In this document: positions 43,750 through 55,888 of the stretch, piece by piece | Layout: every line of letters begins with the position of its first letter | How positions within the stretch are numbered: position 1 is the first letter of the stretch | DNA from: a virus | Lineage: Duplodnaviria > Heunggongvirae > Uroviricota > Caudoviricetes | Virus record (IMG/VR): IMGVR_UViG_3300021400_000141 | Coordinates: 257,354-321,353 of that record | Length of the DNA stretch: 64,000 nt | Reading direction: 5' to 3' (one strand) | Notes under the pieces: generated by a model | Database searches by the model: none | The model's input: only the letters and a program-made list of their open reading frames with translations | Told to the model about the DNA's origin: nothing | Program-made: the position numbers and the translations under genes

Positions 43750-44027
43750 TTAAATTGGAACTTTGGGTCGCTCCCAAAGAACTCCGCAGGTGAAAAGCGG
43801 CCCCTAATAACTTGTGATAATTGCGTGGTAGCTCCATCGCAGGATACCCAAGCGAAAAGGGCAGCCTATTAGCCTGAGCATTTAAAAACGGGGCTCCGCA
43901 GGTGTTTAGCATTTACTCTGCGGAGAAGATGAAGGTCCTGGCGTCCAATGCTTGTATAAGTCAGTTCGACCATGCATCAGTGAAGTTTTTATCCATTTGT
44001 GCGGATATCGACCGTTCTTCACATTTT

Positions 44028-44100
44028 TCCGATGTAGCTCAGTTGGTAGAGCGGCTCATTTGTAATGAGCGGGTCGGGAGTTCGAGCCTCTCTATCGGAG
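44028..44100 (+). tRNA. tRNA-Thr(TGT)
   Basis: Cloverleaf; GCTCA-TTTGTAA-TGAGC. Confidence 0.9.
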
Positions 44101-44110
44101 CTATTTTTAT

Positions 44111-44181
44111 TCGCGTATAGCTTAACTGGAAGAGTGGCCTGTCTGCAGCAGGAAACAAAGGTTCGATTCCTTTTGCGCGAG
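44111..44181 (+). tRNA. Atypical tRNA; anticodon reads TGC with C33, identity unclear
   Basis: Good acceptor and T arms; anticodon stem CCTG/CAGG with loop TCTGCAG; no G3:U70. Confidence 0.55.
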
Positions 44182-44189
44182 CTATGTAT

Positions 44190-44262
44190 TGCCGATTCGC
44201 CAAGCTGGTAAGGCACAGGACTCTGACTCCTGTATTCGGGCGTTCGAACCGCTCATCGGCAA
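44190..44262 (+). tRNA. tRNA-Gln(CTG)
   Basis: Cloverleaf; CAGGA-CTCTGAC-TCCTG. Confidence 0.9.
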
Positions 44263-44275
44263 CTATGAAGAAATT

Positions 44276-44349
44276 TGCGGGGTGGAGCAGTTGGTAGCTT
44301 GTTGGGCCCATAACCCAAAGGTCGCGGAGTTCGAGTCCCGCCCCCGCTA
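44276..44349 (+). tRNA. Initiator tRNA-fMet(CAT)
   Basis: GGG/CCC pairs in the anticodon stem; 1:72 mismatch. Confidence 0.85.
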
Positions 44350-44356
44350 CTAATTT

Positions 44357-44445
44357 GATTGGCCATGGGTTGTCATGACGGCATTTGGTAAATATCGAAG
44401 CCTACCAAGTGGAAGGTTAAATTCCTTCACAATCCTTGGTCAATC
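44357..44445 (+). ncRNA. Degenerate tRNA-like element
   Basis: Acceptor-like stem GGGTTGT/ACAATCC and T-arm GAAGG-TTAAATT-CCTTC; 12-nt loop in place of the anticodon loop; no D arm. Confidence 0.45.
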
Positions 44446-44450
44446 ATTTT

Positions 44451-44523
44451 GCCGATGTAGCTCAGTTGGTCGAGCGGAAGCCTGAAGAGCTTCGCGTCGG
44501 GGGTTCGATTCCCTCCGTCGGCA
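44451..44523 (+). tRNA. tRNA-Phe(GAA)
   Basis: Cloverleaf; GAAGC-CTGAAGA-GCTTC. Confidence 0.9.
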
Positions 44524-44526
44524 CTA

Positions 44527-44595
44527 CACATAGGTGAAATGACGTAGGTGCCCACCGTGTGGGATTTTGGTGGTTCTAAACCACCCACCTATGTG
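44527..44595 (+). ncRNA. tRNA-like element with no anticodon loop
   Basis: CACATAGGTG/CACCTATGTG stem, CCCAC-CGT-GTGGG, T-arm GGTGG-TTCTAAA-CCACC. Confidence 0.5.
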
Positions 44596-44600
44596 TTTAT

Positions 44601-44674
44601 CCGCAGCTATAGCAATTGGTTAGATAGCCACTCTGATAAGGTGGAGGCTCCTGGTTCGAGTCCAGGGTTGCGGA
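44601..44674 (+). tRNA. tRNA-Ile(GAT)
   Basis: Cloverleaf; CCACT-CTGATAA-GGTGG. Confidence 0.85.
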
Positions 44675-44685
44675 CTACATTTTTT

Positions 44686-44759
44686 GGCGCTATCGAATAA
44701 CTGGCCTAGTTCATCGCCCTTTCAAGGCGGCAATACGGGTTCGAGTCCCGTTGGCGCTA
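44686..44759 (+). tRNA. tRNA-Glu(TTC)
   Basis: Cloverleaf; TCGCC-CTTTCAA-GGCGG. Confidence 0.85.
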
Positions 44760-44981
44760 CTAAAAGTCATGCTTGGTAGTACAAGGTAAAACTATTGCTC
44801 GCAGCCGACTTCGGGTCGGGTTCCGAGATATGCCGACATCCTAAATCGGCAGTATGGCGAATTGAAGAAGTCCTTGATAGCAACGGACAACTGATGCGGC
44901 TTCTTCATACAAGGCACAATACTCCGTTCACCTTTGTAGCCGAGGCGCTTTTCTCAATAGTACGTGTCAAAATTGTATTTT

Positions 44982-45054
44982 TCCGACGTAGCTCAGTTGG
45001 TAGAGCAGGGCTTTCGTAAAGCTCAGGTCGTAAGTTCAAGTCTTACTGTCGGAG
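44982..45054 (+). tRNA. tRNA-Thr(CGT)
   Basis: Cloverleaf; GGGCT-TTCGTAA-AGCTC. Confidence 0.9.
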
Positions 45055-45284
45055 TTAAAGACATCTGGCTAAATGTCCGTCATTGAGGGCCAGACCCGTT
45101 TCGTTCGGACAGCGATGGACGGGAGGCGTGATGAAGCCTGCTATTAAAAGGTAACGATACCCATCTAGGTCTATGTAAGGGCTGGTAGGTGAGCCCGTTC
45201 GCAACATAGATGACAAACCGATGGTCTCGGCGACAAGCGGAAAGGATGCCGTAACCCCCGCAGCTCCTCGAATTCATCAAACTT

Positions 45285-45358
45285 CGGAATATAGCTCAGT
45301 CTGGTAGAGCGCTTGCTTCGGGAGCAAGAGGCCGCAGGTCCAAATCCTGCCATTCCGA
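45285..45358 (+). tRNA. tRNA-Pro(CGG)
   Basis: Cloverleaf; CTTGC-TTCGGGA-GCAAG. Confidence 0.9.
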
Positions 45359-45768
45359 CTAAAACACAAATGAGTAGAACCCGTGTTGCATCGTTCATGT
45401 TCATGCTAGCGGGCTAACCCAGATGGGGAAAACTCTGGGATGAGGAATCTGTCTCTGCGAATTATGAATGAAAGAATGGTGGTCGCAGAGGTGTAGTATT
45501 GGCTCTACTAAAATATGCCACGTGAGACCATTTGAAATAAGAATGGGGGAGATAAACTTTGGGTTAACCACCAAGTGTGCTCCTTAATCCGTCCTTGAAA
45601 TTAGGATGCCTGTAAGTTTGTGTTTAAATTAAAAGGCCGTTATGCCTTTCCTGATGTAAACCGTGATGTTGTAAGGAATGTCAGTCGTACGGTCTGTGTG
45701 AGATACCTAAGAACCATTGGGCCACTCACCATAATAAAAGGCTTAGTCAGGGATGTCACGTACTTTTC

Positions 45769-45842
45769 GGCTCTATCGAATAACTGGTTCAGTTCGTTAG
45801 CCTCTCAAGCTAGAAATTCGGGTTCAAGTCCCGATGGAGCTA
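45769..45842 (+). tRNA. tRNA-Glu(CTC)
   Basis: Cloverleaf; TTAGC-CTCTCAA-GCTAG. Confidence 0.85.
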
Positions 45843-45846
45843 TTAT

Positions 45847-45929
45847 GCAGCCATGCTGAAATTGGTAGCCAGGCCAGCCTGTCACGCTGGTGTCCTATGG
45901 GCGTGCGAGTTCAAGTCTCGCTGGTTGCG
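45847..45929 (+). tRNA. tRNA-Asp(GTC) with a long variable arm (Leu-like class II body)
   Basis: CCAGC-CTGTCAC-GCTGG; variable arm TGTCCTATGGGCGT; G73. Confidence 0.8.
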
Positions 45930-45936
45930 CTAATTC

Positions 45937-46011
45937 ACTTCCATAGCTCAGTTGGTTCAGAGCGCTTGCCTTACAAGCAAGGGGTCATAGGTTCGAATCC
46001 TATTGGGAGTA
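45937..46011 (+). tRNA. tRNA-Val(TAC)
   Basis: Cloverleaf; CTTGC-CTTACAA-GCAAG. Confidence 0.9.
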
Positions 46012-46021
46012 CGAATTTACC

Positions 46022-46092
46022 CCCTCAGTAGTGTAATGGTAGCACAATAGCTTGTGGAGCTGTTAGTTCGAGTTCGAATCTCGGCTGGCGGA
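46022..46092 (+). tRNA. tRNA-His(GTG), lacking encoded G-1 and C73
   Basis: ATAGC-TTGTGGA-GCTGT; one acceptor-stem mismatch. Confidence 0.75.
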
Positions 46093-46262
46093 CTAAAATC
46101 AAAAACAGTATAAAAATCGTCATAGTTTATCCGCTGTTCTATGACAAAGTTTTTGCTCTTGCAAGGCGGACTCCGTCAATTAAGTCAATCATGTCGAGAC
46201 GGACATGGGATGTCGGAGGACGTGACCCCTGCTCGGTGTCAGGCTAAAACGCCGCCATTTTT

Positions 46263-46336
46263 GCTCTCGTAGCTCAACTGGATAGAGCGCCAGACTACGA
46301 ATCTGGAGGTTGCAAGTTCGAGCCTTGCCGAGAGTA
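46263..46336 (+). tRNA. tRNA-Arg(ACG)
   Basis: Cloverleaf; CCAGA-CTACGAA-TCTGG. Confidence 0.9.
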
Positions 46337-46349
46337 CTAGGATTTCATT

Positions 46350-46430
46350 GGAGGATTAGGCTAACTGGTAAGTCAGCGGTCTTGAAAACCGCCGTCGTAA
46401 GGCTTGGGGGTTCGAGTCCCTCATCCTCCG
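46350..46430 (+). tRNA. tRNA-Ser(TGA)
   Basis: GCGGT-CTTGAAA-ACCGC; long variable arm. Confidence 0.9.
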
Positions 46431-46610
46431 CTAAGTTTAATAGGCCATTAGCGTTCTTCTCGCAAAAGAGCTAATGACGGGTTGAAGCATGCGAGGTGCT
46501 TACGAACCCGAGGTGGCAAACGACTACAACTGGAGAAGTTTGAGGTTGCCCACGATGACGTACCTGCTATGAAAGACCGTAGACTGATAGTCCAAAAGCG
46601 TCATCACCGA

Positions 46611-46683
46611 TGCGGTGTAGCTCAGTTGGTAGAGCAACGGAATCATAATCCGTGTGTCAACGGTTCAAGTCCGTTCTCCGCAA
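46611..46683 (+). tRNA. tRNA-Met(CAT), elongator
   Basis: Cloverleaf; ACGGA-ATCATAA-TCCGT. Confidence 0.85.
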
Positions 46684-46797
46684 CTATGCAGCTCGGCAGT
46701 TAAACAATGCCGTTTCTGACAAAGATAAGGTTGGTCAGTATAAAGCGCTTCAACAACATAAGAACCTAAAGCAACGGGGGCTGCTATAATTTTAAAT

Positions 46798-46883
46798 CGG
46801 GTTGTGGCGGAATTGGTAGACGCGCACCGTTCAGGGCGGTGTTCCGCAAGCGAGGAGTGTGAGTTCGATTCTCACCAACCCGA
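46798..46883 (+). tRNA. tRNA-Leu(CAG)
   Basis: CACCG-TTCAGGG-CGGTG; long variable arm. Confidence 0.9.
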
Positions 46884-46947
46884 CGATGACAAGTTTTTTG
46901 ACAAGCAAAGATTTTTGTCAAATTTTCAACTTTTTTGACAAAACGGG

Positions 46948-46976
46948 TTGACAGTTGTCAATTATCTTTCTATATT
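46948..46976 (+). promoter_or_regulatory. Sigma70 promoter driving the second tRNA operon
   Basis: TTGACA-N17-TATATT. Confidence 0.8.
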
Positions 46977-46986
46977 TCAGAACGTG

Positions 46987-47033
46987 GTTGACACGCGATG
47001 TCAACTCGCTGATTGACAGTTCGGTTTTGCAAT
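46987..47033 (+). promoter_or_regulatory. Leader hairpin (CGCGA loop) plus 23-nt conserved motif, boxB/boxA-like
   Basis: GTTGACA-CGCGA-TGTCAAC then GATTGACAGTTCGGTTTTGCAAT. Confidence 0.55.
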
Positions 47034-47036
47034 TAT

Positions 47037-47109
47037 GGGGTATTAGCTCAGTTGGTAGAGCACCTGCTTTGCACGCAGGGGGTCAGGAGTTCGAATCTCC
47101 TATGCTCCA
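47037..47109 (+). tRNA. tRNA-Ala(TGC)
   Basis: Cloverleaf with G3:U70; CCTGC-TTTGCAC-GCAGG. Confidence 0.92.
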
Positions 47110-47343
47110 CGAATTTTAATGATACAAGCATACAACCGAGACATTGGAGCAACAATTCTCGGTGGCGATTAAATCGGCTTTGGATTTGCTAGTCCGAGAC
47201 AGAGATATTCAGCCGATTGACTGACTGGGCGACCGTTAATGTATGCTGAATCGATGTGGACCACAGGTGTGCGGTGCGACAGGGGAAGGTCAACCCTTCT
47301 TACGAGTCCCCTCGGGTCGAGTATCATTATTTATTTTTCTTTT

Positions 47344-47432
47344 GGGTTGACGGCGAAGATGGTGGTGTCGCGACGGTCTGTAAAACCGTTCCCTTAGGGT
47401 AAACACTGTAGGTCCGAATCCTACTCAACCCA
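47344..47432 (+). tRNA. tRNA-Tyr(GTA)
   Basis: ACGGT-CTGTAAA-ACCGT; long variable arm. Confidence 0.9.
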
Positions 47433-47437
47433 CTAAA

Positions 47438-47507
47438 AGTCAGTGTCGTTTGAAAGCGTTACTTAGGATGAAGCTAAAAATAACACGCTTTCTCTTTTTA
47501 CCTGACT
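47438..47507 (+). ncRNA. Free-standing copy A of the conserved RNA module (Y-RNA-like candidate)
   Basis: AGTCAG/CTGACT and GAAAGCGT/ACGCTTTC stems; TGTCG, TTACTT and TTTTTACC motifs. Confidence 0.6.
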
Positions 47508-47515
47508 TCTTTTGT

Positions 47516-47646
47516 TCCAGGATAGCTCAGTTGGTTAGAGCACGTAATAATACCTGTCCGTTTTTCCCCTGTGCAAGGGTGGCGTTTGGAATGGGTTACT
47601 TAGCCTGTTAAGCTCGGGGTCGTAGGTTCGAGTCCTACTCCTGGTA
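47516..47646 (+). tRNA. tRNA-Asn(GTT) interrupted by a 57-nt structured insert at position 28/29 (47545-47601)
   Basis: Removing the insert gives CGAGC-CTGTTAA-GCTCG and a 74-nt cloverleaf. Confidence 0.75.
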
Positions 47647-47657
47647 CTAATAAAATT

Positions 47658-47744
47658 TCCAGTGTCGCTAGAAACCGATACTTCGCTCTGTCTTTTCACA
47701 CAGATTGCCCGAATGGGCGTACACGGTTTCGCTTTTTACCTGGA
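47658..47744 (+). ncRNA. Free-standing copy B of the conserved RNA module
   Basis: TCCAG/CTGGA and GAAACCG/CGGTTTC stems; TGTCG, TACTT and GCTTTTTACC motifs. Confidence 0.6.
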
Positions 47745-47749
47745 TTTCT

Positions 47750-47874
47750 GCCGGCGTAGCTCAGTGGTAGAGCGCGTATAAACCTGTTCGCTTTTTCTCC
47801 CGCAAGGGTGGCGACAGAATGGGTTACTTAGTCTGCAAAACTCGTGGTCACAGGTTCGAATCCTGTCGCTGGCA
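47750..47874 (+). tRNA. tRNA-Cys(GCA) interrupted by a 53-nt structured insert at position 28/29 (47777-47829)
   Basis: Removing the insert gives CGAGT-CTGCAAA-ACTCG and a 72-nt cloverleaf. Confidence 0.75.
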
Positions 47875-48146
47875 CTAAGCAATCTTTCCGTTTCAGCGTA
47901 GCAGCAAACGGTGCCGATTCGCAGGCGGCACACCAAACCGTATGAGTAGCCTTTCCGTGGCTGGAAGGTGGCGAAAGACATAAGGTGATTCTTGCGGATA
48001 TATCGGTCGCTCCGATGAAATTTCCTTTTGTAAACGGCTGTTTCGCACAGCGCAAGCTCCCTTTCGGAAACAAAAGTTAAAAGGGATTATGATAGCAGAT
48101 GACCAAAAAGCCATTGGTAGTATGCGAAGGAACAAATGCGAGGTTA

Positions 48147-48220
48147 GGGATTCTAGCTCAATTGGTGAGAGCTACGGACTCATAACCCGTCGGTTCCGAG
48201 TTCAAGTCTCGGGGGTCCCA
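48147..48220 (+). tRNA. tRNA with CAT anticodon (probably Ile2, possibly Met)
   Basis: Cloverleaf, loop CTCATAA; third CAT tRNA in the array. Confidence 0.75.
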
Positions 48221-48550
48221 GAGTCTTGCTTTCTTACCGTTTGTTTACTGTGACGACATTGCAAATCAAACGGCCTCTAAAGTTGGAAGTAAAAAGGGCA
48301 GGAAGGATGCGGCGTCGAAAACCGTATCTGGTAATGCGGGTGAACTTCATATGAGGATAGTTCTATGCCTCGGAGAGTTTCAAATAGATAGCGTTTCGCA
48401 CCGTCCCGAGATGAAGGTGGGGTGTCAGCGACCCAAAGAGCTGATGGTGCAATAGATTGGTGCACAAATCTTAGCCTCCAGGTTTGGTGCAGTTCGGACT
48501 TCGGTTCGTCCTGTGTCGTGATTCGATTTCATGAAGGTTAACTATTTTAA

Positions 48551-48623
48551 GCGGATGTAGCTCAATTGGTAGAGTTCCTGCCCTCCAAGCAGGTTGTTGT
48601 GGGTTCGAGACCCATTATCCGCT
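48551..48623 (+). tRNA. tRNA-Gly(TCC)
   Basis: CCTGC-CCTCCAA-GCAGG; U73. Confidence 0.88.
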
Positions 48624-48630
48624 CGAATTC

Positions 48631-48703
48631 GAGTTCGTAGCTCAGATGGTAGAGCAATAGACTTTTAATCTATGGGTCGCGAGTTCGACTCTCGCCGAGC
48701 TCA
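48631..48703 (+). tRNA. tRNA-Lys(TTT)
   Basis: ATAGA-CTTTTAA-TCTAT. Confidence 0.9.
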
Positions 48704-48712
48704 CGAAAATAA

Positions 48713-48787
48713 GCTTCATTAGCTCAGTTTGGTTAGAGCAGGTGCCTCTTAAGCATCGGGTCCAAGGTTCGAGTCCTTGATGGAGCA
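48713..48787 (+). tRNA. tRNA-Lys(CTT)
   Basis: GGTGC-CTCTTAA-GCATC. Confidence 0.9.
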
Positions 48788-48797
48788 CTACATTTAC

Positions 48798-48870
48798 TGG
48801 GGTATCGTCAAGTTGGTAAGACATGGGATTTTGATTCCCATATTCGTTGGTTCGAGTCCAGCTACCCCAA
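48798..48870 (+). tRNA. tRNA-Gln(TTG)
   Basis: TGGGA-TTTTGAT-TCCCA. Confidence 0.9.
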
Positions 48871-49476
48871 CGAAATAGGCACTGAGAGATGGTCATGTGT
48901 TGCAAGACACGTTATAAAATCCAAAGGTTGCGGAGAAATCCACATAACGGGTGCCGACAAGATTTTTCCACAATCACAGTAAGCTTCCGTCTTCGCCACA
49001 ATGCAGTTGGCGGGAGTTATGGATAGGGTGCGAGTAGTTCACCGTGGACTGGCTTAGCATTCGTCTCGTGATGCCCAGATGCGTCATCCCGATTAGTTAA
49101 ACCCTTTTCGGTGAGGGCAGACTGCTCTCATTCTAGGTGTGGAAGTCAAGGGAGGAAGATGATGCACCAGTTCCTGTTCTGACTAACAGGATATGTTGCG
49201 TGAAGGGATGCAGGTATTAAAGCCCGCATGCGCCGACAAAGAATTGCAGCTGCCGTTCCGAATAGAGGCAGGTCCTTAATGAGGGCGGGTACAGCAATGT
49301 TGCTGCAAGAGGTGCATTAGGTCAAGATAACAGACGACTTCATGTTTTCAATCAGGTACTGTTCCCTGCGGTGAAACCGAAAACTGGCCGCATTGATTTG
49401 CGCATAGGTGCGGATGATTGTCTCTATAAGAGCACGGCTTTGCCATTCAGCTTGTCACGAAAGAGAATGGCGACTC

Positions 49477-49562
49477 GCGCAAGTACCCAAGCGGACGAAG
49501 GGGGAGGTCTGCAAAACCTCTAGGCCGAAAGGCTCGCGTAAGTTCGACTCTTACCTTGTGCT
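49477..49562 (+). tRNA. tRNA-Cys(GCA) with a long variable arm
   Basis: GAGGT-CTGCAAA-ACCTC; variable arm GGCC-GAAA-GGCT; U73. Confidence 0.8.
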
Positions 49563-49590
49563 TAACATTTTCAAAATCAAAGGAGATTCT

Positions 49591-49884
49591 ATGAATTTCT
49601 CGAAGAAAGATGTGGATTTTGCACCATCTCTTGTTGAATACAAGATGACAAAGATTCTTGAAGATAAGGCTATCTTCAAGAATGCTACATCGCCCAACAG
49701 GGATATTCTGAACAAGGTCTACGACCTGTATCAGCCCGCAGCCGCTGCCCATGGAGCCAAGCTCTGGCGTGTCTGGGATAAGTTCAACAAGGACACCCAC
49801 ACCTACACGGTGACGGTGGAAATCTTCAGGGGCAAGGATAAGCTCGTGCTGGAACACACGGCTAAACCTGCCGATGTTGATTAA
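49591..49884 (+). CDS. Hypothetical protein, paralog of the next gene
   Basis: SD AAGGAG; shares VYD.Y...G.K.WR.WD.F.KDTHT.T..VE.F.GK with 49902. Confidence 0.75.
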   Translation: MNFSKKDVDFAPSLVEYKMTKILEDKAIFKNATSPNRDILNKVYDLYQPAAAAHGAKLWRVWDKFNKDTHTYTVTVEIFRGKDKLVLEHTAKPADVD

Positions 49885-49901
49885 ACAGTAATGGAGACTC
49901 T

Positions 49902-50207
49902 ATGAGTACAACATTGGATAAAGTGAATGCTGCACAGGCTCTCGCCGCAGTGAAAGCTATCGTAGAACCGCAAGTGGAAAAGCTTTGCGAAAACAAGCTC
50001 TTGTTCAAGGATAGCGAAACGTCTAGGCGTGACACTCTCGATGCCGTTTATGACATTTATCGTAAGGCGACAATAAACAACGGTGTCAAGATGTGGCGTG
50101 CTTGGGACACTTTCGACAAGGATACGCACACATGTACGATATCTGTTGAAGTTTTTGCTGGAAAGGAAAAGGTCACGATTAAACACGTGGTTGGACCGAA
50201 ACAGTAA
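49902..50207 (+). CDS. Hypothetical protein, paralog of the previous gene
   Basis: SD GGAG; shares the same conserved motif. Confidence 0.75.
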   Translation: MSTTLDKVNAAQALAAVKAIVEPQVEKLCENKLLFKDSETSRRDTLDAVYDIYRKATINNGVKMWRAWDTFDKDTHTCTISVEVFAGKEKVTIKHVVGPKQ

Positions 50208-50215
50208 ATCCGATT

Positions 50216-50289
50216 GTGCTTGTAGCTCAGCTGGATAGAGCAACAGTTTCCTAAACTGTAGGTCGCCAGTTCGACTCTGGCCAAGCACA
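50216..50289 (+). tRNA. tRNA-Arg(CCT)
   Basis: ACAGT-TTCCTAA-ACTGT. Confidence 0.9.
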
Positions 50290-50294
50290 CTAAT

Positions 50295-50378
50295 GGAGAG
50301 ATGGCTGAATTGGTAAAAGCGGAGCTTTGCTAAAGCTTTGTCGGTAACGGCGCGCAGGTTCGAACCCTGTTCTCTCCT
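50295..50378 (+). tRNA. tRNA-Ser(GCT)
   Basis: GAGCT-TTGCTAA-AGCTT; long variable arm. Confidence 0.88.
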
Positions 50379-50386
50379 CTAATTTC

Positions 50387-50521
50387 CCCACAGTAGCTCA
50401 GTCTGGTAGAGCGCTAGTAAATGAAACAGTCTTCCGACTTTTTCCCTGCAAAGGTGACGCAGGAATGACTTACTTCGATAATGGTGACTGGATGTCGTAG
50501 GTTCAAATCCTGCCTGTGGGA
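50387..50521 (+). ncRNA. tRNA body (Pro-like) with the conserved module in the anticodon arm; no canonical anticodon recoverable
   Basis: Intact acceptor, D and T arms; insert has TTCCGACTTTTTCCC...GGTGACG...GAATGACTTACTT. Confidence 0.65.
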
Positions 50522-50530
50522 CTAAATTTC

Positions 50531-50604
50531 GTGGTTATAACATAGTCTGGTTAATGTGTCAGCTTGCCATGCTGGAGACCTGGGTTCAAATCCCAGTAAC
50601 CACT
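50531..50604 (+). tRNA. tRNA-Gly(GCC)
   Basis: TCAGC-TTGCCAT-GCTGG; U73. Confidence 0.85.
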
Positions 50605-50612
50605 TAAAACAT

Positions 50613-50763
50613 GCCGACGCCTCCCCGTCAATCTGGCGACAGGTTGATTAACGGTAGGGGAGGGTTCCTCTTACAACTTTCTCGGTGAAAATCGTTGCGA
50701 TGTGAGAGTTACTTAGATTGCCATAACATTAATCTTTTGAAAGTTCGACTCTTTCCGTCGGCA
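50613..50763 (+). ncRNA. Highly derived tRNA-like RNA with an enlarged D arm and a GTTACTT-containing insert
   Basis: GCCGACG/CGTCGGC acceptor; GAAAG-TTCGACT-CTTTC T-arm; CCTCCCC/GGGGAGG long stem. Confidence 0.55.
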
Positions 50764-50776
50764 TGTTTTTCTTTAC

Positions 50777-50914
50777 GCCAGATTAGCTCAATGGTAGAGC
50801 TCCAGGCCAAAAAACAGCACTTTCGCTTTTCCCAATCCCATGGATTGTGGTGTATGAAATGTGTTACTTAGGATAACACCCAGGAGGTTGTCGGTCCGAG
50901 TCCGACATCTGGCT
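50777..50914 (+). ncRNA. tRNA body with the conserved module in the anticodon arm, immediately upstream of the TROVE gene
   Basis: GCCAGAT/ATCTGGC acceptor, D and T arms; insert has TTTCGCTTTTCCC...GGTG...GAAATGTGTTACTT. Confidence 0.65.
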
Positions 50915-50966
50915 ATACTTTTTTAAACAACATCAACAATTCCTAATCACAACAAAGGAGATGATT

Positions 50967-52307
50967 ATGGCGTCGATTAACAAGAGAAAGGTATCTACCC
51001 CTGTGTTTACTCACGAGGGTGGAAAGGCTTCACACATCGGTTTCGAGGAGAAGTTGCAGCGTACTGTGCTGTGCTGCCTACTGAACGAGGATACGTTCTA
51101 TGAGGACGGAGAGTCCATCAAGGACCGCATCAAGGAATACATGGGCAAGGTCAGCACCGAGTTCGCAATCGCGACTCTGAACAAGGCCAAGCACGAGTAT
51201 CACCTTCGTCATACCCCGTTGTTCATGCTTACTGTGCTCGCAAGTCAGGGTAAGCTGACTAAGGAACTTGTTTATTCGACGGTAACCCGTGTTGATGACA
51301 TCACCGAGTTGCTCGCCATGTACCTCGCAGACGGCAAGAAGAAGACTCTTCCGAAGCAGTTGCAGAAGGGCTTGGCTATGTCGTTCGACAAGTTCGACGA
51401 GTACCAGTTCGGTAAGTACAAGGGTAGCAAGAAGACGGTTTCCTTGAAGGATGCAGTCATGCTGTGCCACCCGAAGGCACCGAATGACGAGAAGAACGCT
51501 CTCTACAAGAAGATTGTGGACAATAGCCTTGCTACTCCGCTTACTTGGGAGACTGAGTTGAGCGCTGGTAAGGACAAGAAGACGGTCTTCGAGAACCTTC
51601 TTTCAACGAACAAGCTGGGTGCACTCGCCCTGTTGAGAAACCTCCGCAACATGGAGCAGGCTCAGGTCTCGCAGCATGCAATCGTAGACGGCATCGCAAA
51701 GATGAACGTGTGTGGTATCATGCCGTACAACTTCTACACCGCAAACAAGCACAGCGATGGAACCTACTCCAAGCAGCTTGAGGCAGCAATGCTTAGGGCA
51801 GCTCGTGAGACGTTCGACAAGTTGGAGGGTAACACCTTGTTCATGGTCGATACGTCGGGTTCTATGAACAACTCTTTGGCAGGTAAGAGCGAGGTCTCTC
51901 GTGGAGAGGCTGCCGCATCCCTCGCTGCCATCATGGATGAGGTCTGTGAGTTCGACAAGGTTTACACCTTCGATATGGATGCACACGCAACCACATCCAA
52001 GGGCTTTGCACTTGCCGACCGTTGTGCTCGTTGCACTGGCGGTACTAACCTTTACGGTTGTACAAACAGTGCGGTTAGAGCTAACACCAGACCGTTTGAC
52101 CGTGTGATTATCATCACCGACGAGCAGTCTATTGGTGGTTCCTTCGACAAGGATGTTCTCCGCATCCCGCACAAGTACATCGTGAACGTTGCCCCTTACC
52201 AGTTCGGTATTGCATACGGTGACTTCATCCACATCAACGGATTCAGCGACGGTATTTTCAAGTACATCGCTGAGTACGAGAAGATGGGTGCAAAGAGCGA
52301 AGAGTAA
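50967..52307 (+). CDS. Ro60/TROVE-domain RNA-binding protein with a vWA domain
   Basis: THEGG, HLRHTPL, LTWETELS, LALLRNLRNM; vWA DTSGSM and IIITDEQ; SD AAGGAG. Confidence 0.9.
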   Translation: MASINKRKVSTPVFTHEGGKASHIGFEEKLQRTVLCCLLNEDTFYEDGESIKDRIKEYMGKVSTEFAIATLNKAKHEYHLRHTPLFMLTVLASQGKLTKELVYSTVTRVDDITELLAMYLADGKKKTLPKQLQKGLAMSFDKFDEYQFGKYKGSKKTVSLKDAVMLCHPKAPNDEKNALYKKIVDNSLATPLTWETELSAGKDKKTVFENLLSTNKLGALALLRNLRNMEQAQVSQHAIVDGIAKMNVCGIMPYNFYTANKHSDGTYSKQLEAAMLRAARETFDKLEGNTLFMVDTSGSMNNSLAGKSEVSRGEAAASLAAIMDEVCEFDKVYTFDMDAHATTSKGFALADRCARCTGGTNLYGCTNSAVRANTRPFDRVIIITDEQSIGGSFDKDVLRIPHKYIVNVAPYQFGIAYGDFIHINGFSDGIFKYIAEYEKMGAKSEE

Positions 52308-52329
52308 TTTCTTTGTTCGTTAGACATTA

Positions 52330-52356
52330 GGGTGGCCGAAAGGCCATCCGTTTTTT
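52330..52356 (+). terminator. Intrinsic terminator after TROVE
   Basis: GGGTGGCC-GAAA-GGCCATCC followed by TTTTTT. Confidence 0.7.
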
Positions 52357-52429
52357 AGGGCGTTCGACCAGTTGGTAGGTCTGCAGTCTCCAAAACTGTT
52401 AGTCGGTGGTTCGAGTCCATCACGTCCTG
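52357..52429 (+). tRNA. tRNA-Trp(CCA)
   Basis: GCAGT-CTCCAAA-ACTGT; G73. Confidence 0.88.
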
Positions 52430-52435
52430 CTATAT

Positions 52436-52518
52436 CGGTTAGTGGTGGAATGGAAGACACTCCAGCCTTAGGAGCTGGTGCTCGAAAGGGCGTGTGGGTT
52501 CGAGTCCCACCTTGCCGA
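52436..52518 (+). tRNA. tRNA-Leu(TAG)
   Basis: CCAGC-CTTAGGA-GCTGG; long variable arm. Confidence 0.88.
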
Positions 52519-52532
52519 TTATTTTTTCACTT

Positions 52533-52616
52533 CGGTAGGTGGCGGAACTGGTAGGCGCGTCAGCTTGAGGGGCTGGTGTTCGAAAGGACGTGAGGGTTCG
52601 AGTCCCTCCTTACCGA
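52533..52616 (+). tRNA. tRNA-Leu(GAG)
   Basis: TCAGC-TTGAGGG-GCTGG. Confidence 0.9.
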
Positions 52617-52641
52617 CTATCTTGAACTTGATTGACTGTTT

Positions 52642-52725
52642 CGGTAGGTGGCGGAATTGGCATACGCGCCAGACTCAAAATCTGGTATTCGCAAGAGTGT
52701 GAGGGTTCAAGCCCCTCCCTACCGA
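52642..52725 (+). tRNA. tRNA-Leu(CAA)
   Basis: CCAGA-CTCAAAA-TCTGG. Confidence 0.9.
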
Positions 52726-52736
52726 CTAATGAACTT

Positions 52737-52809
52737 GCCCGAGTAGCTCAATGGATAGAGCAACGGTTTTCTAAACCGTCGGTTACAGGTTCGACCCCTG
52801 TCTCGGGTA
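52737..52809 (+). tRNA. tRNA-Arg(TCT)
   Basis: ACGGT-TTTCTAA-ACCGT. Confidence 0.9.
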
Positions 52810-52838
52810 CTAATTGCAAAACCGAAAGATGAAATCAT

Positions 52839-52868
52839 GGGCCCGACTTCAATAGTCGGGCCTTTTTT
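52839..52868 (+). terminator. Intrinsic terminator closing the tRNA array
   Basis: GGCCCGACT-TCAAT-AGTCGGGCC followed by TTTTTT. Confidence 0.8.
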
Positions 52869-52869
52869 G

Positions 52870-52898
52870 TTGACATAATAGGTATATTTTACTATATT
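52870..52898 (+). promoter_or_regulatory. Sigma70-type promoter for the ligase
   Basis: TTGACA-N17-TATATT. Confidence 0.7.
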
Positions 52899-52920
52899 TT
52901 CTAGCAAGCAAGGAAATTCT

Positions 52921-54258
52921 ATGCAGAACACTGACTTTATTGAAACTCTTTCCGCAAAACTGACTGACGGTGTACAACCAGCTATGGATTTGGTGGTAGA
53001 AAACATCCTAAATGAATCTGATTTTGCAAAGTATGGCAACGACGAAGAGGATGTTTACTACAAGTATTCAATCCTCCTTCGTGCATCTGGGTTCCGCCCG
53101 AACGAGTTCGAAAATGAACTGAGGGCATCCGTAAGTGCCGCATCAGATATTGCTGTCACGTCGAATTCGAAAAGAGGCAAGGCTTTGGACCGTGAGTCGT
53201 TGCTGTGCGAGGTGATTGAATATCTCGCCAAGGAATACTACAACGGTCATGAAAAGGCTTCAGACGATGCGTATGACGGTCTCGTAATGGAACTTCGGTC
53301 TATCAATCCGAAGAACCCGTTGGCTGCGGGTGGGTTGGCGGCAGCCGACGATACGGGCCGCAAGAAATTCCAGCATTACCTTGTTACGGGAACACAGCAG
53401 AAGTATGCCAATATGGACGCATTTGCGGAAGAATGGTTCCCGCAGTATGGTGGCAAGCATCGCCTTATGCTGAATGGAAAATGCGATGGTGCTGGCAGCG
53501 AAGTTATGTATCAGGACGGTCATATCATCCAAGCGATTTCCCGTGGCGACGGTTTCCAAGGTGAGGATATAACTCAATCTGCTTTGAAGTGGAAGGGTCT
53601 TATTCATGAAATTCCGAACTTCACGGGTTCAATCCGTGGTGAGTTCATGTTGAAGGAAAGCGTATTTCTCGAAAAGTATTCCCAGTCGAAGAAGACAGCT
53701 AGAAACGCCAGTGCAGGAATCTCTAAGCGTCTTGACGGTTCTGGCTCAGAAGATATGTCCTTTGTCGCATACGATGTTCTCAACAGGGCTCCAACACAGT
53801 TCAAGACCGAACTGGAAAAGATGCAGTGGCTGGAATCCTGCGGGTTTGAAGTTCCTATGTACGAACTTGTCGATACGCTAGAACAGATTGAAGCGTTCCG
53901 TGAAAAGGTGTTCGCCAGTCGAAAGAAATCTATTGACTACGGTTGCGATGGCATTGTTGTCAAGATAAACGACATCGATTATGAAGACCTTCGCCGCAAG
54001 ACCCCGATGACCCAGTGTGCCATCAAGTTCAAGCTGGAAACTGCAGAAACCAATCTAATTGGAATAGAATGGAGCTGCAAGGGTAGGTATCTTTCTCCCG
54101 TAGCCATCCTGACCCCGACTGAACTGGATGGTGTTACTGTCGAGCGTGCATCATTGGCTAACTTAAATAAAATGATGCAAATGGGCATCCAAATTGGCTG
54201 TAAAGTGCAAATTTCCCGTCATGGAGAGGTAATTCCGCAGGTTGATAAGGTTGTGTAA
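52921..54258 (+). CDS. ligA: NAD-dependent DNA ligase, N-terminal part (adenylation and OB domains)
   Basis: YYNG..SDDAYD, GKCDG (KxDG), ISRGDG..GEDIT, RGE, RNASAG, DGIVVK, AIKF, GEVIPQV. Confidence 0.9.
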   Translation: MQNTDFIETLSAKLTDGVQPAMDLVVENILNESDFAKYGNDEEDVYYKYSILLRASGFRPNEFENELRASVSAASDIAVTSNSKRGKALDRESLLCEVIEYLAKEYYNGHEKASDDAYDGLVMELRSINPKNPLAAGGLAAADDTGRKKFQHYLVTGTQQKYANMDAFAEEWFPQYGGKHRLMLNGKCDGAGSEVMYQDGHIIQAISRGDGFQGEDITQSALKWKGLIHEIPNFTGSIRGEFMLKESVFLEKYSQSKKTARNASAGISKRLDGSGSEDMSFVAYDVLNRAPTQFKTELEKMQWLESCGFEVPMYELVDTLEQIEAFREKVFASRKKSIDYGCDGIVVKINDIDYEDLRRKTPMTQCAIKFKLETAETNLIGIEWSCKGRYLSPVAILTPTELDGVTVERASLANLNKMMQMGIQIGCKVQISRHGEVIPQVDKVV

Positions 54259-54280
54259 ATGAAATTTTACATTTAAGGTG

Positions 54281-54309
54281 TTGCCAAAAAGTATTTAATT
54301 AGGTATATT
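54281..54309 (+). promoter_or_regulatory. Sigma70-type promoter inside the split ligase locus
   Basis: TTGCCA-N17-TATATT. Confidence 0.65.
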
Positions 54310-54335
54310 TTAGGTATAAACAAAGAGGTAACATC

Positions 54336-54995
54336 ATGAAACAGCTAATCGTCATCATCCTTGCTTTCGTCGCAATGACCTTTGCGGAAGGCTTTCATAA
54401 TGGAACGGGGTTCTTTATCAACTCCGAGTACATCGTAACGGCATATCATGTCGTAGAGGATTACGACTACAATTGTTATTACGATATCCAGAACGATTCG
54501 TGCTATAAGGTGAGTATCGTTGATTACGATAAGGAAAGAGACATTGTTCTCTTGAAGCTGGACGAGGAACCTGTCGCAATGCCTATGGTGTGCCGCATCG
54601 CACACACAGAATTGCCTGTCGGGGAAAAACTTACCTCGTATGGCTACCCAGAACCGTTCCTTGACCATGATTTGACTGTTATCCCGATGAATATCCGTGT
54701 TCAATATCGTTACGACGGGGATTATAGTTATTATCGCATGACTGGAACTCTGCAGCTTGGTATGTCTGGTGGGCCCAATTTTACAAAGGATGGTCGAATT
54801 GGTGGAGTGAGCAAGTCGATATCGACGATGGAAAGGAATACCAGCAACCTGATTAAGTCTACAGAAGTGATTCGTCTTATTCGCAGAAATGGTGTAAGGG
54901 AATATCCGAACACCAAGAATGTTAAAAAGTGTGTTATCAGCATTGTGAACAGCAAGAAAGTATTCAAGTCTGCTCACACAGAATGGGGGGTATAA
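54336..54995 (+). CDS. Secreted trypsin-like serine protease
   Basis: Signal peptide MKQLIVIILAFVAMTFA; GTGF, TAYHVV (His), DIVLL (Asp), GMSGGP (Ser). Confidence 0.85.
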   Translation: MKQLIVIILAFVAMTFAEGFHNGTGFFINSEYIVTAYHVVEDYDYNCYYDIQNDSCYKVSIVDYDKERDIVLLKLDEEPVAMPMVCRIAHTELPVGEKLTSYGYPEPFLDHDLTVIPMNIRVQYRYDGDYSYYRMTGTLQLGMSGGPNFTKDGRIGGVSKSISTMERNTSNLIKSTEVIRLIRRNGVREYPNTKNVKKCVISIVNSKKVFKSAHTEWGV

Positions 54996-55888
54996 TGGTT
55001 CCCGAAAAATATAGAGAATACGTGGCATCGAACATCGAGTTTCCGAAGGAATGTCCTGTCTGCCACGGTGAGTTGAACGTATTGGATAACGGGATGGTTT
55101 GCTGCGTTAACCCGTCCTGCCCGCAGAAGATTGTCCACAAGTTTGCAAACTTCTTCGATGTCTTGGCGATTGACGGTGCAGGCGAAAGCTGTGTTTCGGC
55201 CCTTGTCAATGAAGTGGGGATGAAACGTATTCCCGAGTTGATTTCCGATGCTATCTCTGGTGGAAACGGACTGTCTGCAGCAATGAAGAGCCAAGTGAAT
55301 GGAGCGAAGTTGCGGAAGAACATGCTTGCTGCCATGAATGAACCTATTTCCATGAGCAAGTTCCTCTCTCTGTTTGATTTTGATGGGTTCTCGGAAGCTA
55401 AGTTGTCTGGATTGGAACGCCTTGAAGTGTTCGGTGGATGGTATGACAATCCGTTGGGTACACTGGCTACCCTCCGTTCCTATACCCCAGAGAAGCTTTC
55501 CATGTTGGTTATTCCTGGGTTCAGTGCGTATGAAGTCAAGTTGAATTTGTTTACGCAGGTGTTCGACTGTCTTGATGAAATCACTGGAACGGTTGAAATG
55601 GGCAAATTTACATTCAAGAAGTCTGTAGAAATGGATGCTCTCGGTGGGATGTCGTTCTGTTTCACAGGTGCGATGGAGTACAATCGTGACGACCTTGAAC
55701 GCACGGTAAAGGCGTATGGCGGGCTCGTGAAGGGTAGCGTTAGTGCCAAGCTGGACTATCTCGTTCAGGCCGATGAAAATTCCACCTCGACAAAGTCTAA
55801 GAAGGCGAAGCAGCTCGGTGTAAAGATTATTACCCCAGAAAAGTTCTTTGCCCTATTGAAAGAAAAGGGTGTAAATACTATATTGTAA
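54995..55888 (+). CDS. ligA: NAD-dependent DNA ligase, C-terminal part (Zn finger, HhH, BRCT)
   Basis: CPVC...CVNPSC; FCFTGAM..NRDDL...GG.VKGSVSAKLDYLV...KSKKAKQLGVKII; TAATG-coupled start. Confidence 0.88.
   Translation: MVPEKYREYVASNIEFPKECPVCHGELNVLDNGMVCCVNPSCPQKIVHKFANFFDVLAIDGAGESCVSALVNEVGMKRIPELISDAISGGNGLSAAMKSQVNGAKLRKNMLAAMNEPISMSKFLSLFDFDGFSEAKLSGLERLEVFGGWYDNPLGTLATLRSYTPEKLSMLVIPGFSAYEVKLNLFTQVFDCLDEITGTVEMGKFTFKKSVEMDALGGMSFCFTGAMEYNRDDLERTVKAYGGLVKGSVSAKLDYLVQADENSTSTKSKKAKQLGVKIITPEKFFALLKEKGVNTIL

What the first reader, a model, noticed from the sequence alone, without database searches (positions are those of the whole stretch)
47438..52307. Candidate new system: phage Ro60/TROVE with a family of tRNA-embedded and free RNA modules
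Seen: six clear copies and one derived copy of one RNA module lie within 3.5 kb upstream of a Ro60 gene, in the same operon, the last only ~50 nt before its start codon. I found none elsewhere in the window. Known: bacterial Ro60 (Rsr) genes sit beside their Y RNAs, which tether Ro60 to effectors such as PNPase, and are often linked to RtcB in RNA repair. Inference: a phage RNP system in which Ro60 binds the module to protect, sort or mature tRNAs, or to recruit RNA repair or decay enzymes, possibly countering host tRNA-cleaving defences.
Basis: partly seen in the sequence, partly recalled or inferred. Interest (0 to 1): 0.95.

Follow-up and report, generated by a model that had tools for sequence, protein, structure and literature searches.

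The report
Phage Ro60 with tRNA-framed Y RNAs
A giant rumen phage encodes the RNA-binding protein Ro60 behind seven copies of its likely partner ("Y") RNA; four of them are wired like ordinary tRNAs, not in the rearranged order described for bacterial Y RNAs, so this is a new layout of a known system and not a new system.

Summary
Seven copies of one RNA module lie at 47437-50914, and there are none elsewhere in the window or the 419-kb phage genome. The last copy ends about 50 nt before a Ro60 (TROVE+vWA) gene.

The module has two helices around an internal loop (GNCG-NNNG opposite CUUUUU), followed by UUAC. Covariation supports this fold.

It is the Ro60-binding module of YrlA-type Y RNAs (published motifs GNCGAAN0-1G and YUAY). 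Models trained only on this phage hit the Ro60 strand next to Ro60 genes in 31 of 74 distant viral loci. They also hit a textbook permuted YrlA in Chitinophaga. A TROVE-blind scan gave 42 model-confirmed records, 40 with TROVE.

So this is the known Ro60-Y RNA system, not a new one. F1 and F2 are plain Y RNAs.

T1-T4 and F3 are unusual. They keep normal tRNA order, with the module capped inside the anticodon arm, which is YrlA circularly permuted. In T1 and T2, and in six T-type RNAs of distant phages, the insert sits at position 28/29 beside an intact anticodon hairpin.

RNA contigs show only unspliced forms. I read these RNAs as tRNA-shaped Y RNAs, not intron-bearing tRNAs.

I found no published description. 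This scan has noted the same layout several times on other DNA. Function is inferred.

The parts
46948..46976 (+). sigma-70-like promoter of the transcription unit (TTGACA-17-TATATT)
   Evidence: 11 of 12 consensus matches. This is a consensus match only.
47437..47510 (+). F1: free Y RNA (YrlB-like). The 5' and 3' ends pair; GUCG-UUUG lies opposite CUUUUUAC; the upper helix is followed by UUACUUAG in the apical loop.
   Evidence: R2 76.4 bits; fold; covariation on A3. It is packed between tRNA-Tyr and T1 with spacers of 3 and 5 nt.
47516..47646 (+). T1: tRNA-framed Y RNA. It has a normal-order acceptor, D arm and T arm. A 57-nt module (47545-47601) is inserted between anticodon-stem nt 28 and 29. 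The remaining hairpin AGC-CUGUUAA-GCU plus CG/CG equals a tRNA-Asn(GUU) anticodon arm. It has a U1.U72 mismatch and A73.
   Evidence: R1 66.6 bits; sequence; orthologues; comparison with the true tRNA-Asn, which has G73.
47656..47746 (+). F2: free Y RNA with a branched apical insert; AUACUUCG follows the upper helix.
   Evidence: R2 80.9 bits; fold.
47750..47874 (+). T2: tRNA-framed Y RNA. A 53-nt module (47777-47829) sits at position 28/29. The hairpin AGU-CUGCAAA-ACU equals a Cys(GCA) anticodon arm. The discriminator is A73 here and U73 in L006/L007/L010.
   Evidence: Rfam tRNA 48.9 bits over 125 nt; R1 66.3 bits.
50387..50521 (+). T3: tRNA-framed Y RNA. The module is inserted after 4 bp of a CUAG/CUGG stem, which shows a U.G to G.U covariation in relatives. 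No conserved canonical anticodon loop.
   Evidence: Rfam tRNA 46.8 bits; R1 60 bits.
50613..50763 (+). F3: derived tRNA-framed copy. It keeps a 7-bp acceptor and a T arm; the D arm is replaced by a long hairpin; the module has G-C at the pair that is C-G or A-U in the other copies.
   Evidence: R1 49.4 bits; fold; covariation at pair 28-41 of A2.
50777..50914 (+). T4: tRNA-framed Y RNA. The module sits inside the loop of a 5-bp anticodon-like stem (CCAGG/CCAGG with an A.A mismatch; G-C becomes C-G in L012).
   Evidence: Rfam tRNA 43.5 bits; R1 53.3 bits.
50967..52307 (+). Ro60 gene (TROVE + vWA with the MIDAS motif DVSGSM). The likely start is the second ATG, giving MASINKRK; the AAGGAG Shine-Dalgarno site abuts the first ATG at 50961.
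   Evidence: Pfam TROVE; PDB 9KOP/9L5Y phage Ro60, E 1e-25; 5737 homologues and invariant D297/S299/S301.
52330..52358 (+). intrinsic-terminator-like hairpin plus T-run after the Ro60 gene
   Evidence: 8 pairs, 6 of them G-C, followed by a T-run.

Best explanation
The seven elements are the Y RNAs (partner RNAs) of the phage's Ro60 protein.

Proposed sequence of events:
- One promoter drives a long precursor that holds tRNAs, the seven Y RNAs and the Ro60 mRNA.
- Host tRNA-processing enzymes (RNase P, and RNase Z or other 3' trimming) cut at the tRNA-shaped units. This also releases the free hairpins F1 and F2, which lie between such units, and the 5' end of the Ro60 mRNA.
- Ro60 binds the shared module. 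The module is helix H1, then an internal loop with G-N-C-G-NNN-G on one strand and (G)CUUUUU on the other, then helix H2 with a bulged U, then UUAC just 3' of H1.

F1 and F2 are minimal Y RNAs with the classical layout: the ends pair in H2 and H1 is closed by a variable loop. T1-T4 and F3 carry the same module with H2 capped by a loop and H1 opening into the anticodon arm of a body in normal tRNA order. They are therefore circular permutations of bacterial YrlA. Their acceptor ends are free, so they could be matured, and perhaps given CCA, like tRNAs.

By analogy with YrlA, the tRNA-shaped body would be the effector-binding part that brings Ro60 to tRNA-recognising or RNA-decay and repair enzymes.

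Shown here: the copies, their fold, their permutation, their linkage to Ro60 genes across distant phages and bacteria, and their presence unspliced in RNA libraries. Inferred: Ro60 binding, processing and the cellular role.
For: 1. Motif identity with YrlA.
- The published hallmarks are GNCGAAN0-1G on the strand that leads to the T arm, then YUAY at the start of the V region (PMC4201824; kink at the conserved UA, 10.1101/312249).
- Here the motif is GNCG-NNNG, then helix, then UUAC, with the same connectivity to the T arm.

2. Models trained only on this phage lineage transfer to distant loci.
- R2 hits a textbook permuted YrlA (T arm, closed acceptor, D arm) beside rsr in Chitinophaga filiformis. 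It also hits Y RNAs in Acidobacteriota and Cytophagales loci.
- R1 and R2 together hit 31 of 74 viral Ro60 loci at 36-44% protein identity.
- All 63 hits lie on the Ro60 strand. Most are within 1 kb upstream of the gene and a few lie just downstream.
- R1 also hits L015 and L016, with 53% and 45% identical Ro60, 145 and 86 nt upstream.

3. TROVE-blind test.
- A DNA pattern scan of viral contigs gave 80 loci, and 36 hold TROVE on the same strand.
- Of the 44 others, six have an R1 hit at E<1. Four of those six sit on records that hold TROVE elsewhere. The two without TROVE are the weakest hits, on contigs 11% and 43% complete.

4. Covariation supports both helices.

5. The closest solved protein is a phage Ro60 shown to bind two Y-like RNAs encoded upstream of its gene.

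6. RNA contigs from three metatranscriptome studies cover T1, F2 and T2 unspliced, and none joins across an insert.

7. T1 lacks Asn identity: it has A73 and U1.U72, whereas the phage's true tRNA-Asn has G73. The window's T2 has A73 where CysRS needs U73. The phage already has separate tRNA-Asn and tRNA-Cys genes.
Against: - No binding data exist.
- Rfam's YrlA model does not reach its threshold on any copy (24 bits against 69).
- The residues after GNCG are not the published AA.
- T4 (GGUG) and F3 depart from GNCG.
- Eight of 17 tRNA-framed copies across phages keep a perfect composite 5-bp anticodon stem with a 7-nt loop (U33, purine 37) exactly beside the insert. A pure scaffold does not obviously need this, and an intron model predicts it.
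- In relatives L006/L007/L010, T2 has both GCA and U73.
- Logan contigs cannot show mature small RNAs, so the absence of spliced joints is weak evidence.
Confidence: 0.8

Rival explanations
1. T1 and T2, and their counterparts in other phages, are intron-bearing tRNA genes. The module would be a small non-canonical intron at position 28/29, removed by an unknown endonuclease and sealed by the phage RtcB ligase. This would yield decoding tRNAs and, possibly, a free or circular Y RNA. It is compatible with the module also binding Ro60.
For: - Exact removal restores 5-bp stems and canonical loops in T1 (Asn) and T2 (Cys). The same holds for L016 (Glu UUC), L039 (Asn), L085 (Leu UAG), L098 (Pro UGG), L092 (AUG) and L056 (UUU).
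- T2 in L006/L007/L010 has U73 plus GCA.
- RtcB is encoded in the genome.
- The free F forms are circular permutations, as an excised and circularised intron would allow.
Against: - There is no bulge-helix-bulge motif at the junctions (sequence).
- No tRNA-splicing endonuclease was found: best PF01974 hit 12.9 bits, E 0.04.
- No spliced joint appears in four RNA runs, while unspliced contigs do.
- T1 has A73 and U1.U72, and the window's T2 has A73.
- Separate Asn and Cys tRNAs exist.
- T2 orthologues in the 85% group have an 8-nt loop.
- T3, T4, F3, L065, L041 and L037 cannot give a canonical arm.
- The insert's 3' border shifts by one nucleotide relative to UUACUU between phages.
- In permuted YrlA the same region is simply the V stem-loop.
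Confidence: 0.12
2. The module is a processing or regulatory element of the tRNA and Ro60 operon, for example a site for a nuclease, an antiterminator or another phage protein. On this view it only travels with Ro60 genes because both sit in tRNA arrays.
For: The copies lie inside a tRNA array. Many Ro60 loci in phages are next to tRNAs and tmRNA.
Against: - The module is also found beside chromosomal rsr genes in Bacteroidota and Acidobacteriota loci where Rfam finds no tRNA at gathering score.
- The rest of this phage's tRNA array (42886-47433 and 52357-52810) has no copy.
- The motifs match those published for Ro60-bound Y RNAs.
Confidence: 0.05

Closest known systems
YrlA (Y RNA-like A; Rfam RF02553; S. 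Typhimurium, M. smegmatis, mycobacteriophages; Chen et al. 2014 PMC4201824; Wang et al. 2018, 10.1101/312249)
   Same: - It is encoded beside Ro60.
- It has a Ro60-binding stem with GNCG..G on the strand that runs to the T arm, followed by YUAY.
- It has a tRNA-like domain with T arm, D arm and acceptor.
- The Ro60 module extends from the anticodon-stem position.
   Different: - YrlA is circularly permuted: the order is T arm, closed acceptor loop, D arm, with the ends at the Ro60 stem.
- T1-T4 and F3 have normal tRNA order, open acceptor ends and a capped Ro60 stem.
- Many retain a complete anticodon hairpin beside the module.
- The residues after GNCG are NNNG instead of AA(N)G.
- The RF02553 threshold is not reached.
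YrlB of Salmonella and Yrl1/Yrl2 of Thermus phage phiLo (PMC12135203)
   Same: - These are small Y RNAs without a tRNA-like domain.
- A 5'-3' stem flanks an internal loop that carries the CGAA-type motif.
- They are encoded just upstream of a phage Ro60 gene; binding and cryo-EM are shown for phiLo.
- F1 and F2 have this layout.
- phiLo Ro60 is the nearest solved relative of this protein.
   Different: - Sequence family: UUACUU and CUUUUU strands, GUCG-NNNG.
- F1 and F2 are released from between tRNA-shaped units.
- There are seven RNAs here, against two in phiLo.
Archaeal and eukaryal tRNA introns (bulge-helix-bulge, EndA plus RtcB)
   Same: - A short insert interrupts the anticodon arm, and its removal restores a canonical arm.
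- RtcB is present in the genome.
   Different: - There is no BHB motif and no EndA homologue.
- The insert is a conserved protein-binding module that also occurs free and in bodies that cannot be restored.

Membership tests
Ro60/Rsr protein (TROVE + vWA) | TROVE domain | tested here: met
   PF05731 at 56.8 bits against a cut-off of 23.
Ro60/Rsr protein (TROVE + vWA) | C-terminal vWA domain with the MIDAS motif DxSxS | tested here: met
   D297, S299 and S301 (DVSGSM) are invariant in a 17-sequence alignment. Relatives carry PF13519 and PF25045.
Ro60/Rsr protein (TROVE + vWA) | Similarity to a solved Ro60 over the full length | tested here: met
   Match to 9KOP/9L5Y phage phiLo Ro60, E 1e-25, residues 10-436. 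The ring fold itself was not modelled.
YrlA-type Y RNA | Encoded next to a Ro60 gene on the same strand | tested here: met
   All seven copies lie within 3.5 kb upstream. The same is seen in distant loci.
YrlA-type Y RNA | GNCGAAN0-1G motif in the Ro60-binding stem | tested here: inconclusive
   GNCG is present in T1, T2, T3, F1 and F2, followed by NNNG and not AA(N)G. T4 has GGUG and F3 has GCGAUG. Distant viral copies read GGCG-NAG.
YrlA-type Y RNA | Conserved YUAY after the stem, before the V region and T arm | tested here: met
   UUAC in six copies and AUAC in F2.
YrlA-type Y RNA | tRNA-like domain (T arm, D arm, acceptor) | tested here: met
   T1-T4: the Rfam tRNA model scores 43.5-48.9 bits on T2, T3 and T4 across the insert. 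T1 is seen from its arms in the sequence. F3 has only a T arm and an acceptor. F1 and F2 lack the domain (YrlB-like).
YrlA-type Y RNA | Circularly permuted order with a closed acceptor loop and termini at the Ro60 stem | tested here: not met
   T1-T4 and F3 have normal tRNA order with a capped module. Hence they are filed as a variant, not as YrlA members.
YrlA-type Y RNA | Reaches the Rfam RF02553 gathering score | tested here: not met
   The only YrlA match in 42000-53500 scores 24.1 bits against 69, and it lies over the tRNA-Gly/tRNA-Lys junction (48594-48656), not on any copy. There is none in 17 other viral or 16 bacterial loci.
YrlA-type Y RNA | Physically bound by Ro60 | not testable with these tools
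   Needs RIP, CLIP or EMSA.
BHB tRNA intron | Bulge-helix-bulge at the exon-intron junctions and an EndA-type endonuclease | tested here: not met
   The junction loops are 3-7 nt opposite 4 nt, with no 4-bp central helix. PF01974 scores 12.9 bits, below its cut-off.
BHB tRNA intron | Spliced product detectable | tested here: inconclusive
   No joint across 47545-47601 or 47777-47829 appears in four RNA runs. These are assembled contigs, which miss small mature RNAs.

The most novel reading that the evidence does not exclude
The tRNA-framed Y RNAs are matured like real tRNAs (RNase P and Z, CCA addition by the phage's own CCA-adding enzyme). They deliberately display authentic anticodon stem-loops (Asn, Cys, Glu, Leu, Pro and others) next to bound Ro60. 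The particle would then act as a decoy, sensor or repair platform for host anticodon nucleases, coupling cleavage of the displayed loop to Ro60 and RtcB. The same RNAs would be living intermediates showing how permuted YrlA arose from a tRNA that acquired a Ro60-binding hairpin at position 28/29.
Probability: 0.15. Interest if true: 0.85.

Novelty: new variant of a known kind. Interest (0 to 1): 0.55.

Why it matters
What bacterial and phage Y RNAs do with their tRNA-like domain is an open question, and no effector for that domain is known.

A Y RNA in true tRNA order has free acceptor ends and often a complete anticodon hairpin. That makes specific tests possible: RNase P and Z processing, CCA addition, aminoacylation, and cleavage by anticodon nucleases.

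It also offers a simple origin for YrlA: a tRNA with a Ro60-binding hairpin in the anticodon stem, later permuted.

For annotation, these elements are currently miscalled as odd or intron-bearing tRNAs (ARAGORN called a false tRNA-Asn inside T1), or they are missed altogether. Rfam's YrlA model misses this whole branch, including chromosomal copies in Bacteroidota.

Tried and rejected
- Rfam at E<1 over 42000-53500 gave only tRNA hits and one sub-threshold YrlA hit on tRNA arms. No self-cleaving ribozyme family matched. A partial resemblance of the F-form internal loop to hairpin-ribozyme loop B, recalled from memory, was dropped for lack of any model hit.
- Megablast against deposited phages found only a tRNA-Lys fragment.
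- RNAalifold on a raw MAFFT alignment of whole T1-T4 mis-drew the module. I replaced it with a module-only alignment and a hand-written structure.
- Read laying on four RNA runs showed no joint across either insert. 'Letters between' joints at 47541>47618 and similar places are ordinary tRNAs of other organisms. Both X4 and X8 contigs of the Ro60 mRNA begin at 50912, at T4's 3' end; this is only a weak hint of processing there. Because the runs are contigs, absence of spliced forms is not evidence.
- My first anticodon-restoration scans were too permissive: the ARAGORN scan on deletion variants, and a rule scan with a 17% shuffled null. Only hits placed directly after UUACU(U) were counted.
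- A possible eighth copy at about 47940-47990 (GGCGAAAG) is not found by R1 or R2 and exists only in the 95% group. It was not counted.
- The 97-aa ORF upstream of Ro60 in L014 is unrelated to the window's small ORFs.
- No PNPase-type RNase PH domain is encoded by the phage.
- Two review or comparative papers (PMC10870794, PMC5062991) are not held in the library.

Full report
**Setting.** The window is bases 257354-321353 of a 419,423-bp virus record with direct terminal repeats. Near-identical DNA occurs in sheep, bovine and other gut metagenomes and in six metatranscriptome runs. The finding lies in a 10-kb tRNA array with 36 ARAGORN calls. A strong sigma-70-like promoter sits at 46948-46976. 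No strong terminator-like site (at least 6 G-C pairs with a T-run) follows until 52330-52349, directly after the ORF at 50961-52307.

That ORF is a TROVE protein (Pfam 56.8 bits). It has an invariant vWA MIDAS motif and thousands of homologues. Its nearest solved relative is Ro60 of Thermus phage phiLo (E 1e-25 over residues 10-436). The Shine-Dalgarno spacing and the homologues' N-termini favour the second ATG, at 50967.

**The observation.** Reading 47300-51020 and folding the candidates shows two layouts of one module.

In T1 (47516-47646), T2 (47750-47874), T3 (50387-50521) and T4 (50777-50914), a body with a normal acceptor stem, D arm and T arm carries a 53-65-nt insert in the anticodon arm. 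The Rfam tRNA model matches T2, T3 and T4 at 43.5-48.9 bits over 125-138 nt. F3 (50613-50763) is the same with the D arm replaced by a long hairpin.

In F1 (47437-47510) and F2 (47656-47746) the module stands alone, with its ends paired.

A module-only alignment of 24 distinct paralogues and orthologues supports this structure:
- helix H1 of 8 bp;
- an internal loop with (G)CUUUUU on the 5' side and the CG-NNN(N) part of G-N-C-G-NNNG on the 3' side (the G-N lies in H2);
- helix H2 of 2+2 bp with a bulged U;
- UUACUU directly 3' of H1.

In this alignment 88% of cells pair, against 36-52% when partners are slid by 1-3 columns. Six of 12 pairs change on both sides; for example one pair is C-G, A-U or G-C. 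The F alignment gives 95% paired with three covarying pairs.

The T and F layouts are circular permutations. Aligning the 3' half of T to the 5' half of F, and the 5' half of T to the 3' half of F, scores 7-19. Collinear pairing scores 1-6 and shuffles average 4-8.

Covariance models R1 (T layout) and R2 (F layout) find five and two copies. Neither finds anything else in the window or in the whole genome. All seven elements are syntenic in seven related contigs with 84-96% identical Ro60.

**What the module is.** Chen et al. 2014 (PMC4201824) describe two hallmarks for YrlA Y RNAs. One is GNCGAAN0-1G near the 5' end, the likely Ro60 contact. The other is a conserved YUAY that begins the V region before the T arm. 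Wang et al. 2018 (10.1101/312249) show that the Ro60 module extends from the anticodon-stem position of a circularly permuted tRNA whose acceptor stem is closed by a loop.

The phage module reads GNCG-NNNG, then the H1 strand, then UUAC, then on towards the T arm. The motifs and the connectivity are the same.

Three tests tie it to Ro60.

1. Transfer to distant viral loci. R1 and R2 were trained only on this lineage.
- They hit L015 and L016 (Ro60 53% and 45% identical), 145 and 86 nt upstream of the gene.
- They hit 31 of 74 viral loci with 36-44% identical Ro60.
- All 63 of those hits are on the Ro60 strand. Most lie within 1 kb upstream and a few lie just downstream.

2. Transfer to bacterial chromosomes. 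R2 hits tandem RNAs beside rsr in Chitinophaga, Chryseobacterium, Cytophagales and Acidobacteriota. One of them, L221 4440-4569, is a textbook permuted YrlA with the same stem: CAGG-U-GUCG-UAG-GAAAGCG-UUACUUCG ... CGCUUCC-GGUUUGUUACC-CUG. Rfam RF02553 reaches its threshold on none of these, so this is a branch that the current model misses.

3. I scanned viral contigs with a TROVE-blind DNA pattern.
- The scan returned 80 loci, and 36 hold TROVE on the same strand. In 32 of them the gene starts 61-711 nt downstream of the match.
- Of the other 44, six have an R1 hit at E<1; the rest I take to be chance matches.
- Four of those six lie on records that do carry TROVE: L107 is a short piece of the contig of L007, and L128, L134 and L122 were checked.
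- The two without TROVE are the weakest hits, on contigs 11% and 43% complete.
- In total, 40 of 42 model-confirmed records have TROVE.

**Known or new.** Phage Ro60 with adjacent Y RNAs is published. YrlA was found in most phage genomes searched in 2014. Jumbo phages with TROVE were noted in 2021 (PMC7824862). phiLo Ro60 was shown in 2025 to bind two upstream Y-like RNAs and host PNPase (PMC12135203). The 'candidate new system' is therefore the Ro60-Y RNA system.

What I did not find in print is the normal-order, tRNA-framed layout. This rests on six literature searches and the papers read. The layout is not peculiar to this phage. Similar bodies occur in at least eleven other viral contigs: L016, L092 (two copies), L085, L039, L065, L041, L037, L098, L056, L042 and L028.

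The scan's own notes record the same layout several times on other DNA, including a related rumen phage. These are leads, not independent evidence.

**Intron or Y RNA?** In T1 and T2 the insert lies between anticodon-stem nucleotides 28 and 29. Removing 47545-47601 or 47777-47829 restores CGAGC-CUGUUAA-GCUCG (Asn) and CGAGU-CUGCAAA-ACUCG (Cys).

The same holds at the same position in distant phages: L016 (Glu UUC), L039 (Asn), L085 (Leu UAG), L098 (Pro UGG), L092 (AUG) and L056 (UUU). That is eight of 17 framed copies, far above chance for that exact position. This is the main argument for splicing.

Against splicing:
- There is no bulge-helix-bulge motif and no EndA homologue.
- RNA contigs of three studies cover T1, F2 and T2 unspliced, and no run shows a joint across an insert. 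This is weak evidence because the runs are contigs.
- T1 has a U1.U72 mismatch and A73, whereas the phage's real tRNA-Asn has G73.
- The window's T2 has A73, although L006/L007/L010 have U73.
- Separate Asn and Cys tRNAs exist.
- In the 85% group, T2 has an 8-nt loop.
- T3, T4, F3 and several foreign copies carry the module after 4 or 5 stem pairs and cannot be restored.
- The 3' border slides by one nucleotide relative to UUACUU between phages.

In permuted YrlA the corresponding place holds the V stem-loop. I therefore read the anticodon hairpin as a retained, fast-evolving arm of a three-way junction in a Y RNA. The intron reading stays at about 0.12.

**Mechanism (inferred).** The precursor is cut by host tRNA-processing enzymes at the tRNA-shaped units. 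F1 and F2 sit 3-9 nt from such units on both sides, so they would be released as by-products. Contigs of the Ro60 mRNA from two studies both begin at 50912, at T4's 3' end; this is a weak hint only.

Ro60 would bind the GNCG internal-loop module. The tRNA-shaped bodies would offer a tRNA surface to an effector. The phage encodes RtcB 38 kb away and a CCA-adding-enzyme homologue, but no PNPase-type domain. Any RYPER-like complex would therefore need host PNPase, as proposed for phiLo.

**Verdict.** This is a new variant (normal-order, tRNA-framed Y RNAs, seven per operon) of a known system, with moderate interest.

Noticed in passing
window 48965-49430: A structured non-coding RNA of about 470 nt between tRNA-Gln and tRNA-Cys. 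A long-range helix closes it, and 17 predicted pairs show compensatory changes among six related phages. It is roughly 40 times more abundant than its flanks in three metatranscriptomes (X4 360x, X7 340x, X8 66x). No Rfam family matches at E<1.
   Followed up: partly
window 48221-48545: A non-coding RNA of about 325 nt that is better conserved than the neighbouring Y RNAs, even in the relatives with 85% identical Ro60. Its 5' and 3' ends pair next to a T-arm-like hairpin, as in tmRNA. Depth in run X7 is 520-640. ARAGORN and Rfam call no tmRNA, although Rfam finds tmRNAs beside Ro60 in other viral loci (L079, L032).
   Followed up: partly
window 49591-49884 and 49902-50207: Two paralogous small ORFs (97 and 101 aa, 45% identical, no Pfam family) inside the tRNA/Y RNA operon. 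RNA contigs of variant strains skip 49884-50218, so those strains carry only one copy.
   Followed up: partly
window 49477-49562: The phage's tRNA-Cys(GCA) is 86 nt long with a long variable arm (class II-like) and U73.
   Followed up: no
window 47573-47647: ARAGORN calls a false 'tRNA-Asn' that starts inside the T1 insert. Annotation pipelines will mislabel these tRNA-framed Y RNAs.
   Followed up: yes
L008 3547-3679, L011 2642-2775, L012 3341-3474: The T2 orthologue in the relatives with 85% identical Ro60 has the stem of T1 but an 8-nt loop AUUAGGAA. An unrelated phage (L085) shows AUUAGGA as a 7-nt Leu(UAG)-type loop.
   Followed up: partly
L221 4180-4720 (Chitinophaga filiformis): Four or five tandem Y RNAs lie downstream of chromosomal rsr. 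They include a textbook permuted YrlA that Rfam RF02553 misses at its gathering score.
   Followed up: partly
L027 821-1282 and L028 3159-3856: Four Ro60-type modules lie in tandem upstream of Ro60; all but the last lack a tRNA body of their own. They may form one multi-module Y RNA.
   Followed up: no
window 52921-55888: An NAD-dependent DNA ligase is split. The adenylation and OB domains are at 52921-54258 and a BRCT-bearing ORF is at 54929-55888, with a trypsin-like peptidase gene (54336-54995) between them.
   Followed up: partly
window 47878-48146: A 270-nt spacer present only in the 95% group; in L008 T2 is followed by tRNA-Met after 16 nt. It contains GGUGGCGAAAG, a canonical GNCGAAAG word, but R1 and R2 do not detect it.
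   Followed up: partly
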